A stretch of DNA of 64,000 nt from the NCBI RefSeq assembly GCF_056746865.1, contig NZ_CM163382.1; one strand, written 5' to 3'. Position numbers: made by a program. The first letter of the stretch is position 1; each line of letters starts with the position of its first letter. This document shows, piece after piece, positions 1-3,000 of the stretch.

Positions 1-3000
1 CACGCGCTGCCTCTCTTCGCTGCTGGATCTGCGGGTTAGTCTGCATTTTCTCGCGGACTGCCTGGCGCTGCTCAGGAGAGGCCGACTGATAACGCTGACG
101 AGCGGCGTCCTTTTGTTGCTGGGTCAGTGGTTGGCGACGGCTGAACTCGCGGAAGTCGTCATAGCTCCCATAATGTTCCGCTTCATTAAATCGCTGTGCC
201 GCAGCCTGACGTTGAGTATCTCGCGTAATGACTGGCGCAGTGTGTGTTCGTTGCTGAAACTGACTTGCTGCTGCCTGACGCTGACTGTCGCGCGATAGAG
301 CAGGTAACTGCGTGGCGCTCATGCCGCCGTTGACATCGGTTTGGTGAAACCGCTTTGCCATATCCTGATCATGATAGGGCACACCATCACGGTAGTTTGG
401 ATTGTGCCGCCATGCCATATTGTTATCAGTAAGATGCTCACCGGTGATACGGTTGAAATTGTTTACGTCGATATTGATGTTGTCGCCGTTGTGTTGCCAG
501 CCATTACCGTCACGATGACCGCCATCGTGGTGGTGATAATCATCATCGTCATGATGATGATGGTCATGATCGTCGTCATCCCAGTCGATGCTGCTGAATA
601 GCGCGTACGTGGTAGCAACGCCCATGCTATAGCCGAATCCGCGCACAAAGCTGTCAACAAACGGTTCTCCGGCTGGTGGTGGCAGATAAACTGGCGGATA
701 AGCGGTATTGGCCCAACTGCCGTAAACCACGTTTGGGTTGTAGTTCGGAATATAAACCACATCCGGATTGGCTGGCTCAATGGTTATTACGGTCGGTGCA
801 GGTTCTGCGACGACGGGGCTGGACGTAGAAACGGTATTTGATTGTGTGACAGGGGCGTTGGCGGGCTGATTTACCGGTACGACTTTTTTCGTTGTCGTGA
901 TGATCTTTTGTTCAGTTGATGACTTCAGCGAGCCGGTTTGTTGCGCCAGTTGCCGCAATCGCTGTACCGAGTCCATCACGTCCTGCGGCTGCGCCAGAAA
1001 AGCATCGCCCAGGTTTTGCACCCATTGCGGGTTTTCGCCCATCAATGCCATCAACTGTGGAAAGGCCACCAGTGATTTGACGCTGGCGTCCCAGGGCTGG
1101 TCAGATACCGCCTGAATAGCAGCATCGCCTTGTTTAAGTGGATTATCGTGCGACCATTGCACTGCTTGAGCAACGTTTGTCGGATAGGTTGATGCCATCA
1201 GCACCTGCGAAAGTAGGGCGTCGGGATACAGCGCGACGGGCGCGACCCATTGATCTATTTGTGCAGTGCTGAATGCAGATTTGACGACGGCGGGTGTTAC
1301 GGGAGGTGCGGAAACCGTTGCAGGAAGCGTAACTGCGGAGATGTCAGGCGCATTCTGTTGTGTCGATTGCGCTTCCACAGGCGCTTCCACTGTGCGGCTT
1401 TTTATATATAGCCCGGCAGAGGCGGCACAAAGCCCGGCACTGCAAATTAGCGCCAGCACATGGGGTTTAAACGGCAAAGTCATTTTCATAATTCGGATCT
1501 CAAGGAAATCGCAATGGTCGGCGAACTGCCACCCGCAGGTGCTGAGAATCCGAGTATAAAGAGGCGGTAGTTTAAATTTTGACTAATCTTGGGATTCGTT
1601 GAGAAAGGTGATTATCACCATGCGAATTAACGAAGTTTTTACGGAGGGAAACAATCTCTAGACCATCCTTAACGATTCAGCCACTTTTTTATGTTGCTTT
1701 TTTGTAAACAGATTAACACATCGTCAAAATCCTGCTATTCTGCCCGTTGCGGTACTGGGCATTTACCCTACAAACTGCTGTCTCACAGGAGCGTGAAGAG
1801 AATCGCCTGCCGCACTATGACAATGAGAGCGAGGAGAACCGTCGTGCTAGAAGAATACCGTAAGCACGTAGCTGAGCGTGCCGCTGAGGGGATTGCGCCC
1901 AAACCCCTGGATGCAAACCAAATGGCCGCACTTGTAGAGCTGCTGAAAAACCCGCCCGCGGGCGAAGAAGAATTCCTGTTAGATCTGTTAACCAACCGTG
2001 TTCCCCCTGGCGTCGATGAAGCCGCCTATGTCAAAGCAGGCTTCCTGGCTGCTGTCGCGAAAGGCGAAGCCAAATCCCCACTGCTGACTCCGGAAAAAGC
2101 CATCGAACTGCTGGGCACTATGCAGGGTGGTTACAACATTCATCCGCTGATCGACGCGCTGGATGATGCCAAACTGGCACCGATCGCTGCCAAAGCACTT
2201 TCTCACACGCTGCTGATGTTCGATAACTTCTATGACGTAGAAGAGAAAGCCAAAGCAGGCAACGAATATGCGAAGCAGGTAATGCAGTCCTGGGCGGATG
2301 CCGAATGGTTCCTGAATCGCCCGGCACTGGCTGAAAAACTGACCGTTACCGTCTTCAAAGTCACAGGCGAAACCAACACCGATGACCTTTCTCCGGCACC
2401 GGATGCGTGGTCACGCCCGGATATCCCACTGCACGCGCTGGCGATGCTGAAAAACGCCCGTGAAGGTATTGAGCCAGATCAGCCTGGTGTTGTTGGTCCG
2501 ATCAAACAGATTGAAGCTCTGCAACAGAAAGGTTTCCCGCTGGCGTACGTCGGTGACGTTGTGGGTACGGGTTCATCGCGTAAATCCGCCACGAACTCCG
2601 TTCTGTGGTTTATGGGCGATGATATTCCACATGTGCCGAACAAACGCGGCGGTGGTTTGTGCCTCGGCGGTAAAATTGCACCCATCTTCTTTAACACGAT
2701 GGAAGATGCGGGTGCACTGCCAATTGAAGTGGACGTCTCTAACCTGAACATGGGTGACGTAATTGACGTTTACCCGTACAAAGGTGAAGTGCGTAACCAC
2801 GAAACCGGCGAACTGCTGGCGACCTTCGAACTGAAAACCGACGTGCTGATTGATGAAGTGCGTGCCGGAGGTCGTATTCCGCTGATTATCGGGCGTGGCC
2901 TGACCACCAAAGCGCGTGAAGCACTTGGTCTGCCGCACAGCGATGTGTTCCGTCAGGCGAAAGATGTCGCTGAGAGCGACCGCGGCTTCTCGCTGGCGCA

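What the first reader, a model, noticed from the sequence alone, without database searches (positions are those of the whole stretch)
480..600. His/Asp-rich low-complexity tract inside yacH
The minus-strand yacH frame encodes a run of the type DDDDHDHHHHDDDDYHHHDGGHRDGNGWQHNGDN. Alternating His/Asp stretches of this kind are typical of divalent-metal-binding segments. Seen on the other strand it gives the odd VVVIIIIVMMMM translations in the ORF track. The function of YacH is unknown to me.
Basis: seen in the sequence. Interest (0 to 1): 0.2.

Follow-up and report, generated by a model that had tools for sequence, protein, structure and literature searches.

The report
His/Asp-rich hairpin loop in YacH
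The His/Asp run is real: it is an Enterobacteriaceae-specific, length-variable, probably disordered loop that replaces a four-residue turn in the uncharacterised envelope protein YacH; it looks like a natural metal chelator, but nothing here shows that the cell uses it as one.

Summary
Window 479-580 (minus strand) encodes YacH residues 304-337, DDDDHDHHHHDDDDYHHHDGGHRDGNGWQHNGDN. The window is the E. coli lpdA-yacH-acnB region, and yacH runs off its left end.

YacH matches only Pfam DUF3300. In 87 of 114 diverse family members this position is a 4-residue turn after an invariant Trp. AlphaFold2 models it as a tight beta-hairpin in a canonical member and as a low-confidence loop in E. coli.

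In 29 Enterobacteriaceae species the loop is 17-34 residues. 79% of them are Asp, His, Asn or Tyr (all NAY codons) and 16% are Gly.

The DNA is a degenerate trinucleotide repeat. E. coli alleles of -3, +6, +24 and -39 nt all break at short direct repeats. The same tract carries an 8-bp pseudogenising deletion in Salmonella Typhimurium and one end of a 164-bp inversion in an ETEC strain.

Metal binding is chemically very plausible (HDHHHH is essentially a His-tag) but untested. I found no metal-regulator box, no metal-related neighbour genes and no structural relative, and His content varies from 1 to 11 between genera.

Verdict: an ordinary low-complexity loop expansion of a known kind, mildly interesting, with its physiological role open.

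The parts
1..1489 (-). yacH coding sequence, residues 1-496 of 617. The 3' end lies beyond the left edge of the window.
   Evidence: Open frame from the ATG at 1487-1489. 100% match to annotated yacH of NZ_CP023142.1, 1854 nt.
1415..1489 (-). N-terminal export signal or anchor, residues 1-25 (MKMTLPFKPHVLALICSAGLCAASA).
   Evidence: This is the most hydrophobic 19-residue window of the protein (Kyte-Doolittle 2.04 at residues 11-29), and AlphaFold2 models helix 9-24. Homologues carry classical signal peptides or lipoboxes. Whether it is cleaved was not determined.
491..1267 (-). Pfam DUF3300 (PF11737) match, residues 75-333.
   Evidence: hmmscan E=1.9e-77, 260 bits against a cut-off of 25. It is the only family hit.
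581..595 (-). Strand before the loop, residues 299-303 (SSIDW), ending in the family-invariant Trp303.
   Evidence: AlphaFold2 strand E299-301. W303 is present in 114 of 120 aligned family members.
479..580 (-). The His/Asp-rich tract, residues 304-337: DDDDHDHHHHDDDDYHHHDGGHRDGNGWQHNGDN.
   Evidence: Codon table. pLDDT 45-69 in the model. This is the site of nearly all small indels among E. coli YacH variants.
524..580 (-). Core (NAY)19 codon run, residues 304-322. It contains (CAT)4 at 551-562, (GAT)3 at 539-547, (CAC)3 at 527-535, and the direct repeats GACGAT and CATGAC.
   Evidence: Codons listed. A weak 9-bp tandem repeat was reported at the equivalent of window 540-574. Indel breakpoints are shown in alignment A3.
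479..523 (-). Gly/Asn-rich second half of the loop, residues 323-337 (GGHRDGNGWQHNGDN).
   Evidence: The equivalent GGYHGGGNNN / GNGYQHNGDN segments occur in other genera.
461..478 (-). Strand after the loop, residues 338-343 (INIDVN): the family-wide alternating (I/V)(N/D) motif.
   Evidence: AlphaFold2 strand E338-341, pLDDT rising to 92. Family consensus V.INVN.
374..412 (-). Conserved W-x-H-x-P-x-(H/Y)-R-x-G-V-x-Y motif, residues 360-372 (WRHNPNYRDGVPY).
   Evidence: The regex is found in 49 of 150 representatives, and W360 and R367 are nearly invariant. pLDDT 93-94.
1..153 (-). Proximal end of the C-terminal 96-bp (32-residue) tandem repeat array (SASPEQRQAVREKMQTNPQ.QQR..AARERIQ). Most of the array lies outside the window.
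   Evidence: Tandem Repeats Finder on L001 2753-3153: period 96, 3.0-3.6 copies. L001 coordinate minus 3000 equals window coordinate.
341..601 (+). Antisense mechanical ORF giving ...VVVIIIIVMMMMVMIVV.... This is not a gene.
   Evidence: Listed by the ORF listing. It is the reverse complement of the GAY/CAY run.

Best explanation
SHOWN
- The tract is the tip of a beta-hairpin in the C-terminal half of the DUF3300 domain of YacH, an exported protein of unknown function.
- In most of this very large family the tip is a 4-residue turn after an invariant Trp (typically G/H, R/H/G, G/R/H, D).
- In Enterobacteriaceae the tip has been expanded to 17-34 residues made almost only of Asp, His, Asn and Tyr (all NAY codons) plus Gly. 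Escherichia has the longest and most His-rich version.
- At the DNA level it is a degenerate trinucleotide repeat. It still changes length by slipped-strand events between short direct repeats, and it occasionally destroys the gene.
- The model predicts it to be disordered.

INFERRED
- The expansion arose and is resized by replication slippage.
- It is tolerated because a hairpin tip is sterically free.
- Its composition, but not its exact sequence or length, is under some constraint.
- Chemically it is a polyanionic, His-tag-like chelator. It should bind Zn2+, Ni2+, Cu2+ and Co2+ with roughly micromolar affinity, and it would lose about ten negative charges between pH 7.5 and pH 5.

MOST LIKELY READING
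It is a low-complexity decoration with low-affinity, possibly incidental, metal- and pH-responsive behaviour. It is not a dedicated, regulated metal site, and the core function of DUF3300 does not depend on it.
For: Location and structure:
- Sequence and position are confirmed.
- The loop between the invariant W303 and the next strand is 4 residues in 87 of 114 family representatives. Long loops occur only in scattered lineages.
- In the canonical member P0147, AlphaFold2 gives strand 240-243, a 4-residue turn, then strand 248-251, at pLDDT about 93. In E. coli the flanking strands are kept (E299-301, E338-341) and the tract has pLDDT 45-69.

Distribution across species:
- 29 Enterobacteriaceae species, mostly in the same lpdA/acnB context, have loops of 17-34 residues: D 33.5%, H 25.4%, G 15.9%, N 12.2%, Y 7.8%.
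- His ranges from 1 to 11 per loop.
- A 40%-identical non-enteric relative has the turn GRGS.
- A 61%-identical relative (P0126) lacks the tract and the following strand altogether.

Slippage:
- 32 distinct tract variants occur among 120 E. coli cluster representatives.
- In a rank-spread sample of 60 of 5416 complete genomes, 48 have the same length as the query, 1 is -3 nt, 6 are +6, 1 is +24 and 2 are -39.
- Alignment A3 places every breakpoint at a direct repeat: loss of one CAT from (CAT)4, CATGAC duplication, a 24-nt tandem duplication, and a deletion between TCATC microhomologies.

Gene-breaking events in the same tract:
- An 8-bp GATCATCA deletion (Asp284fs) occurs in S. Typhimurium strains.
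- A 164-bp inversion in an ETEC strain has one end at D322.

No sign of a dedicated metal role:
- No metal-regulator box upstream.
- Only DUF3300 matches among protein families.
- No PDB relative by sequence or fold.

Charge: the computed net charge of the tract is -10.1 at pH 7.5 and -0.4 at pH 5.
Against: Several observations suggest the composition is selected, so the loop may do something specific:
- The D/H/Y/N/G make-up and the leading DDD(D)(D) run persist across at least 12 genera, while the true linkers of the same protein are not conserved even within E. coli.
- Only 10 of 765 loop residues are E, Q or K, the residues that third-position transversions of NAY codons would produce.
- Asp and His runs use mixed synonymous codons (6 GAT and 6 GAC; 6 CAT and 4 CAC). 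Amino acids have therefore been kept while third positions drifted.
- Pairwise pN/pS in the tract is 0.09-0.17. That resembles the folded parts and is lower than the linkers (0.3-3.7), but it rests on only 2 synonymous and 1-2 non-synonymous differences.

Other limits:
- Independent His-rich expansions at the same site in non-enteric members (P0186, P0128, P0199), and frequent His in the short turn (about 20% at each of the four positions), hint that His is favoured here family-wide.
- Disorder and the hairpin geometry are predictions, not measurements.
Confidence: 0.6

Rival explanations
1. A dedicated, selected metal-binding module. The loop would capture or buffer Zn2+ (or Ni2+/Cu2+) in the cell envelope, as the flexible His-rich loop of ZnuA or the His-rich loops of PA4063 do. 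It would feed or protect the DUF3300 core, or an unknown partner.
For: - The HDHHHH and HHH clusters interleaved with Asp are classical ligand sets.
- Disordered His-rich loops in periplasmic zinc proteins bind zinc at micromolar affinity (PA4063 abstract; ZnuA loop literature cited in PMC3872050).
- The composition is conserved across genera, E/K/Q are nearly absent, synonymous codons are mixed, and pN/pS is low.
- His is common even in the ancestral 4-residue turn, and Cys or Asp often flank the Trp.
- yacH is reported to be CpxR-regulated. From my own knowledge, not checked here, Cpx also responds to metal stress.
Against: - No Zur, Fur, NikR, CueR, CusR, ZntR or RcnR box lies in the yacH-acnB intergenic region.
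- The neighbouring genes are lpdA and acnB.
- His content is not conserved: 1 in Buttiauxella agrestis, 3 in Yokenella and Enterobacter sp. ENT03.
- Length varies from 20 to 41 within E. coli.
- The loop is absent from P0126, and most of the family has only a 4-residue turn there.
- The gene is a pseudogene in several successful S. Typhimurium lineages.
- The papers retrieved for yacH report no metal link. A combined yacH-plus-metal-terms search was not informative.
Confidence: 0.25
2. An electrostatic or pH switch, or a polycation-binding patch. The loop is strongly anionic at neutral pH and near neutral at pH 5. It could change conformation or partners on acidification. Alternatively its poly-Asp face could bind cationic antimicrobial peptides, which would explain the protamine phenotype.
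For: - The computed net charge is -10.1 at pH 7.5, -3.3 at pH 6 and -0.4 at pH 5.
- The leading poly-Asp run is the best-conserved feature across genera, better conserved than His.
- A published delta-yacH mutant survives protamine better than wild type, and yacH mRNA falls on protamine or cecropin A exposure (PMC9600279).
- The C-terminal region carries about +22 charge, so an intramolecular acidic-basic interaction is conceivable.
Against: - Nothing links the phenotype to this loop rather than to the rest of the protein.
- The phenotype comes from a single study.
- Glu, which is equally acidic, is almost absent (1 of 765). That argues against selection for charge alone.
- No tool here tests pH behaviour.
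Confidence: 0.1
3. The topology is different. The hydrophobic Gly/Ala-rich segment just before the tract (residues ~280-301) would be a transmembrane helix. The tract and the basic C-terminal half would then be cytoplasmic, and the tract would be a juxtamembrane His-rich loop like those of CDF, ZIP or RcnA transporters. This concerns location and is compatible with either functional reading above.
For: - In 46 of 114 family members the best 19-residue window before the invariant Trp has Kyte-Doolittle hydropathy of at least 1.6 (median 1.51).
- The sequence after the Trp has a median net charge of +19, which fits the positive-inside rule.
- Many members have DW followed by HRRH or similar.
Against: - The E. 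coli segment scores only 0.78.
- AlphaFold2 models no helix there. This holds for E. coli and for P0147, whose segment scores 1.99. In P0147 the segment forms part of a confident beta-hairpin at pLDDT 82-93.
- Some members are predicted lipoproteins.
- The residues immediately after the segment in Enterobacteriaceae are poly-Asp, the opposite of positive-inside.
Confidence: 0.1
4. An artefact: a frame error, a sequencing or assembly error in a repetitive stretch, or a non-coding region.
For: Low-complexity repeats are error-prone in assemblies. Many of the variant proteins are singletons from metagenomes.
Against: - The frame is open for 617 codons and annotated in 5415 of 5426 complete E. coli genomes.
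- All length variants are in frame. The +6 allele is shared by a whole identity band of about 547 genomes, including ST131.
- Orthologues in 29 species keep the loop.
Confidence: 0.01

Closest known systems
His-rich flexible loops of periplasmic zinc-handling proteins (ZnuA of E. coli and Salmonella; PA4063 of Pseudomonas aeruginosa)
   Same: All are exported proteins with a surface loop that is disordered in the apo form and made of His with Asp or Glu. The chemistry would give low-micromolar Zn2+ binding (PA4063 abstract; ZnuA loop references listed).
   Different: YacH has no solute-binding-protein or ferredoxin-like fold (only DUF3300 matches). It has no Zur box and no transporter genes nearby. 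Its His content is not conserved between genera, and metal binding is untested.
Canonical DUF3300 (PF11737) proteins, e.g. P0147 and P0132
   Same: They share the same domain, the invariant Trp, the following (V/I)(N/D) strand, the W.H.P.HR.GV.Y motif, an N-terminal signal peptide and a basic C-terminal tail.
   Different: They have a 4-residue turn where E. coli has 34 residues. Their tails are Gly/Arg-rich rather than the 32-residue SPEQRQ repeats. Some, such as the Rahnella protein, are paired with a DUF2950 gene that E. coli yacH lacks.
Coding trinucleotide repeats and homopeptide low-complexity regions that evolve by replication slippage
   Same: The tract has runs of identical codons ((CAT)4, (GAT)3, (CAC)3). 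Its in-frame length polymorphism has breakpoints at direct repeats, and it sits in a disordered surface loop.
   Different: The repeat is impure, with mixed synonymous codons and four different NAY amino acids, and it is old (shared by at least 12 genera). It is also stable enough that about 80% of sampled E. coli genomes share one length. It is therefore not a hypermutable contingency locus.
Engineered and natural poly-His tags and tails (His6 tag; SlyD and HypB His-rich regions)
   Same: HDHHHH has five His in six residues, enough in principle for Ni/Co-IMAC-type chelation. This is established chemistry of His tags, taken from my own knowledge.
   Different: SlyD and HypB are cytoplasmic nickel-enzyme maturation factors encoded with, or acting on, hydrogenase and urease systems. 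YacH is exported and has no such context.

Membership tests
DUF3300 (Pfam PF11737) | Match to the family HMM above the gathering score | tested here: met
   E=1.9e-77, 260.2 bits against a cut-off of 25, residues 75-333.
DUF3300 (Pfam PF11737) | Conserved core motifs: N-terminal APIALYPD...ASTYP helical domain, VYVP.YNP..VYG.W, invariant Trp before the turn, W.H.P.HR.GV.Y | tested here: met
   Invariant and nearly invariant columns of alignment A1 are all present in E. coli YacH. Motif scan.
ZnuA-type (cluster A-I) periplasmic zinc-binding proteins with a His-rich loop | Solute-binding-protein fold or family match | tested here: not met
ZnuA-type (cluster A-I) periplasmic zinc-binding proteins with a His-rich loop | Zur-dependent regulation (Zur box in the promoter) | tested here: not met
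   No site within 8 mismatches of the 23-bp Zur consensus in window 1490-1860. This was a consensus scan only, not expression data.
ZnuA-type (cluster A-I) periplasmic zinc-binding proteins with a His-rich loop | Disordered surface loop rich in His and acidic residues | tested here: met
   10 His and 12 Asp in 34 residues. pLDDT 45-69 between two confident strands.
ZnuA-type (cluster A-I) periplasmic zinc-binding proteins with a His-rich loop | Measured Zn2+ binding by the loop | not testable with these tools
   Needs ITC or ICP-MS on purified protein or peptide.
Phase-variable contingency locus (simple-sequence repeat switching gene expression) | Repeat-length changes that shift the reading frame, or promoter spacing, reversibly and at high frequency | tested here: not met
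   The E. coli alleles seen are -3, +6, +24 and -39 nt, all in frame. 48 of 60 sampled genomes share one length. The out-of-frame events found (8-bp deletion, 164-bp inversion) are not repeat-unit changes and look irreversible.
His-rich cytoplasmic loops of metal transporters (CDF, ZIP, RcnA) | Loop connects transmembrane helices of a multi-pass transporter | tested here: not met
   No transporter family hit. Apart from the N-terminal signal there is only one candidate hydrophobic segment, which scores 0.78 in E. coli and is not modelled as a helix.
Nickel metallochaperone His-rich tails (SlyD, HypB, UreE, Hpn) | Cytoplasmic protein with a chaperone or GTPase domain, or a genomic link to hydrogenase or urease maturation | tested here: not met
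   YacH has an N-terminal export signal, its neighbours are lpdA and acnB, and no such domain was found.

The most novel reading that the evidence does not exclude
The Enterobacteriaceae-specific Asp/His loop could be a selected functional module: a metal- and/or pH-responsive sensor at the tip of a conserved hairpin. It would sit on DUF3300, a very large and wholly uncharacterised envelope protein family (more than 9,500 clusters at 50% identity). In that reading it modulates the Cpx-linked, cationic-peptide-related role reported for YacH, and its slippage-prone DNA lets lineages tune or discard it.
Probability: 0.15. Interest if true: 0.45.

Novelty: new member of a known kind. Interest (0 to 1): 0.15.

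Why it matters
The finding matters modestly.

- YacH belongs to the E. coli 'y-ome', and DUF3300 is a very widespread family with no solved structure and no known function.
- Placing the tract at a hairpin tip that is normally four residues long gives a clean experimental handle: swap the loop for GGGD. That swap separates the role of the loop from the role of the protein.
- The loop is a plausible low-affinity metal binder, and possibly an IMAC contaminant.
- It is also a local hotspot for indels, and it accounts for known yacH pseudogenes in Salmonella Typhimurium.

None of this would surprise a specialist. His/Asp low-complexity loops and slippage-driven length variation are both familiar.

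Tried and rejected
**Frame error.** Rejected. The frame is open and annotated.

**A '96-bp insertion' in some strains.** The two-piece BLAST hits suggested one. It was a repeat-register artefact of the C-terminal 96-bp array: O157 yacH has the same 1854-nt length.

**Searches for a known family or fold.**
- Pfam and NCBIfam on the whole protein found only DUF3300.
- Pfam on the tract alone gave ZrgA at E=6.6, which is noise. On the C-terminal repeats it gave DUF3106 at E=0.0036, below the cut-off.
- I recalled a resemblance between the SPEQRQ repeats and the LTXXQ motifs of CpxP/Spy/ZraP. No such Pfam hit appeared, so I dropped it.
- The PDB sequence search found nothing meaningful.
- The AFDB library was unavailable.

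**Metal-regulator and other boxes** (Zur, Fur, NikR, CueR, CusR, ZntR, RcnR, and also CpxR, PhoP, BasR) in the yacH-acnB intergenic region. No convincing site was found. The best Fur match has 7 mismatches and the best CpxR-like matches have 3.

**Transmembrane-helix hypothesis** for residues 280-301. Hydropathy is ambiguous across the family. AlphaFold2 does not support it in two members. I kept it as a low-probability rival.

**Compensating frameshift** as the cause of the clustered substitutions at codons 45-52. Rejected: they are plain substitutions.

**Literature.** Only three papers mention DUF3300, and none of the papers retrieved for yacH discusses the tract or metals. The combined yacH-plus-metal-terms search was uninformative: its top-ranked papers do not mention yacH at all.

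**Ribosome destabilisation by acidic nascent chains.** I considered from memory that this might be a translational role for the poly-Asp run. It was not tested, and I judge it unlikely so far into the protein (residue ~304).
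Full report
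**What is there**

The window begins inside E. coli yacH, which lies on the minus strand between lpdA and acnB. Bases 1-1700 are 100% identical to strain CFSAN061770, and 5415 of 5426 complete E. coli genomes carry most of the query.

Translating window 1-1489 on the minus strand gives residues 1-496 of the 617-residue protein. The rest lies beyond the left edge.

The plus-strand ORF 341-601, with its VVVIIIIVMMMM run, is the mechanical antisense of these GAY/CAY codons.

The first 19 residues of the tract hold 18 His or Asp. With the composition of the rest of the protein, this has a probability of about 1e-21 per window.

**What the protein is**

- The only family match is Pfam DUF3300, at 260 bits, over residues 75-333. 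NCBIfam has nothing.
- The family is very large: 9532 clusters at 50% identity with E<=1e-3.
- The N-terminus is a hydrophobic export signal. Typical homologues have classical signal peptides, and a few have lipoboxes.
- The literature is thin. Only three papers mention DUF3300.
- yacH is reported as CpxR-regulated. Its deletion improved survival on protamine (PMC9600279).
- Knock-outs are viable.

**Where the tract sits**

I aligned 120 diverse family members. The Trp just before the tract (W303) is present in 114 of them. The stretch from that Trp to the next conserved strand, (V/I)(N/D)(I/V)(N/D), is 4 residues long in 87 of those 114. Typical turns are GGGD, HHGD and HRRH.

AlphaFold2 on a canonical member (P0147) gives strand 240-243, a 4-residue turn, then strand 248-251, at pLDDT about 93. 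On E. coli YacH the two strands are kept (E299-301 and E338-341). The flanking regions are confident (pLDDT above 90 for 230-270 and 340-380). The tract itself falls to pLDDT 45-69.

The tract is therefore an expansion of a hairpin tip and is predicted to be disordered. Other lineages have filled the same site with different low-complexity material. Some inserts are Gly/Tyr-rich (P0216, P0228, P0261) and others His-rich (P0186, P0128, P0199). The site is thus generally permissive.

**How old and how conserved**

A scan of species-representative genomes returned 37 loci, and 36 of them are enterobacterial. The exception is L046, a 40%-identical non-enteric relative. Two further loci carry non-enteric record titles but have enteric-type loops. 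In 33 of the 37 loci an acnB and/or lpdA motif lies on the opposite strand, so they are positional orthologues.

In 29 species of at least 12 genera (Escherichia, Citrobacter, Salmonella, Atlantibacter, Kluyvera, Raoultella, Buttiauxella, Franconibacter, Yokenella, Dryocola, Enterobacter and others):

| Property | Value |
|---|---|
| Loop length | 17-34 residues, median 26 |
| Start of the loop | a run of 3 to 6 Asp in most species (a few begin DHDD, DNDD or HDDDD) |
| Asp | 33.5% |
| His | 25.4% |
| Gly | 15.9% |
| Asn | 12.2% |
| Tyr | 7.8% |
| Residues with NAY codons (D, H, N, Y) | 79% |
| E, Q or K | 10 of 765 residues |
| His per loop | 1 (Buttiauxella agrestis) to 11 (E. albertii) |

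The 40%-identical non-enteric relative has the short turn GRGS. One 61%-identical relative lacks the tract and the following strand altogether. A Rahnella homologue that carries the tract sits elsewhere in its genome and is followed by a DUF2950 gene.

**How it varies**

Among 120 E. coli cluster representatives there are 32 distinct versions of the tract, 26-41 residues between the anchors.

I also took a rank-spread sample of 60 of the 5416 complete genomes that match a 211-nt query:

| Length relative to the query | Genomes in the sample |
|---|---|
| Same length | 48 |
| -3 nt | 1 |
| +6 nt (ST131 and relatives; the 90-95% identity band holds 547 genomes) | 6 |
| +24 nt | 1 |
| -39 nt | 2 |
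| Partial match only (H70 covers 99% of the query; H80 is the disrupted ETEC allele) | 2 |

The DNA alignment puts every breakpoint at a short direct repeat:

- loss of one CAT from (CAT)4;
- tandem duplication of CATGAC;
- tandem duplication of a 24-nt unit;
- a deletion between TCATC microhomologies.

Within E. coli the tract is the main site of small indels. 13 of its 34 columns are gapped in some sequence, and there are 12 insertion columns. Larger indels fall in the C-terminal repeats.

The same DNA also breaks the gene:

- S. Typhimurium 14028s, UK-1 and SL1344-type strains carry an 8-bp deletion (GATCATCA, Asp284fs) in the homologous D-D-H-H codons (PMC10048834 and PMC3391293).
- ETEC isolate L3_E36 has a 164-bp inversion (window 362-525) with one end at D322, and its yacH is annotated as frameshifted.

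This is slipped-strand and microhomology behaviour. It is not phase variation, because the repeat-unit changes are in frame and one length dominates.

**Is the composition selected?**

Arguments for some constraint:

- The composition persists across genera, while the real linkers (residues 31-70 and 196-232) diverge even within E. coli.
- Asp and His are encoded by mixed synonymous codons (6 GAT and 6 GAC; 6 CAT and 4 CAC).
- E, Q and K are nearly absent.
- Pairwise pN/pS is 0.09-0.17, against 0.3-3.7 in the linkers. However, this rests on only 2 synonymous and 1-2 non-synonymous differences.

Arguments against a precise function:

- Length and order are free.
- His content is not conserved.
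- The loop can be lost, as in P0126, and most of the family has only a 4-residue turn there.

**Metal binding**

Chemically the claim is safe. HDHHHH is close to a His-tag, and interleaved Asp adds hard ligands. Comparable disordered His-rich loops in periplasmic zinc proteins bind Zn2+ at micromolar affinity (PA4063 abstract; ZnuA loop literature listed).

Biologically it is unsupported:

- No Zur, Fur, NikR, CueR, CusR, ZntR or RcnR box lies in the 370-bp upstream region.
- There are no metal-related neighbour genes.
- No metal-protein family or fold matches.
- The papers retrieved for yacH report no metal link. The combined search with metal terms was uninformative.

An equally physical consequence of the composition is a large pH-dependent change in charge, from about -10 at pH 7.5 to about 0 at pH 5. 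Together with the conserved poly-Asp start and the protamine phenotype, this keeps an electrostatic role alive as a minor rival.

**An unresolved point: topology**

The Gly/Ala-rich segment before the Trp is hydrophobic enough for a membrane helix in 46 of 114 members. The sequence after it is very basic, with a median net charge of +19. That would suit a cytoplasmic C-terminal half.

Against this, E. coli scores only 0.78. AlphaFold2 models beta structure rather than a helix, even in a member that scores 1.99. I treat a periplasmic location as more likely but not established.

**Verdict**

The finding is real and correctly read, and the gene is correctly named. It is best described as a lineage-specific, slippage-shaped, disordered Asp/His/Tyr/Asn/Gly expansion of a beta-hairpin turn in a DUF3300 protein.

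It has generic chelating and pH-titrating chemistry. There is some evidence that its composition is constrained and no evidence of a dedicated metal role.

It is a new example of a familiar kind of feature, and its interest is low.

Noticed in passing
window 1-153 (-) and beyond the left edge; L001 2753-3153: The C-terminal part of yacH is a 96-bp (32-residue) tandem repeat, about 3-3.6 copies, encoding SASPEQRQAVREKMQTNPQ.QQR..AARERIQ. E. coli YacH proteins range from 582 to 662 residues, with 22-, 32- and 45-residue insertions in the C-terminal half (after residues 416, 467 and 547). This region carries about +22 net charge. Its only family hint is a sub-threshold DUF3106 hit (E=0.0036)..
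   Followed up: partly
L008 (NZ_LR882997.1, ETEC L3_E36), equivalent to window 362-525: A 164-bp segment of yacH is inverted. One breakpoint lies in the His/Asp tract (D322) and the other at the CATGATCAGG of H373-D374-Q375. The gene is annotated 'frameshifted'.
   Followed up: yes
Salmonella Typhimurium yacH (STM0157), codon ~284; literature only: An 8-bp deletion (GATCATCA / GATGATCT) inside the homologous D-D-H-H codons makes yacH a pseudogene in 14028s, UK-1, SL1344, D23580 and a human-milk isolate, relative to LT2 (PMC10048834, PMC3391293).
   Followed up: partly
window 1607-1619: A perfect 13-bp palindrome, GGTGATAATCACC, lies about 120 bp upstream of the yacH start codon in the yacH-acnB intergenic region. 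It is unique in the window and expected 0 times in shuffles. It resembles half a Fur box (7 mismatches to the 19-bp consensus). Its function is unknown.
   Followed up: partly
window ~1333-1360 (-), yacH codons 44-52: The window strain and K-12 differ by a dense cluster of non-synonymous substitutions in the linker after the signal peptide (QQNAPDISAV against QLAVSDAAAV). pN/pS for residues 31-70 is 2.0-3.7. There is no frameshift. Overall this yacH allele is only about 94% identical to most E. coli, and 140 of the 5425 matching genomes are at least 99% identical.
   Followed up: partly
window 584-650 (-), residues 280-302; family alignment A1: The Gly/Ala-rich hydrophobic segment before the tract is transmembrane-like by hydropathy in 46 of 114 family members. 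It is followed by a very basic C-terminal half (median +19). AlphaFold2 nevertheless models it as beta structure. The topology of the family is unresolved.
   Followed up: partly
L010 5001-7486 (Rahnella victoriana): A DUF3300 protein carrying an Asp/His tract is followed 18 bp downstream by a DUF2950 (PF11453) gene, at a locus unrelated to lpdA/acnB. E. coli yacH has no such partner.
   Followed up: no
L043 and L046 record titles: Two genome records carrying enterobacterial-type or DUF3300 loci are labelled 'Chryseobacterium sp. 18061' and 'Bordetella parapertussis' MAG. The first has a typical Citrobacter-like tract plus an acnB motif, which suggests mislabelling or contamination.
   Followed up: no
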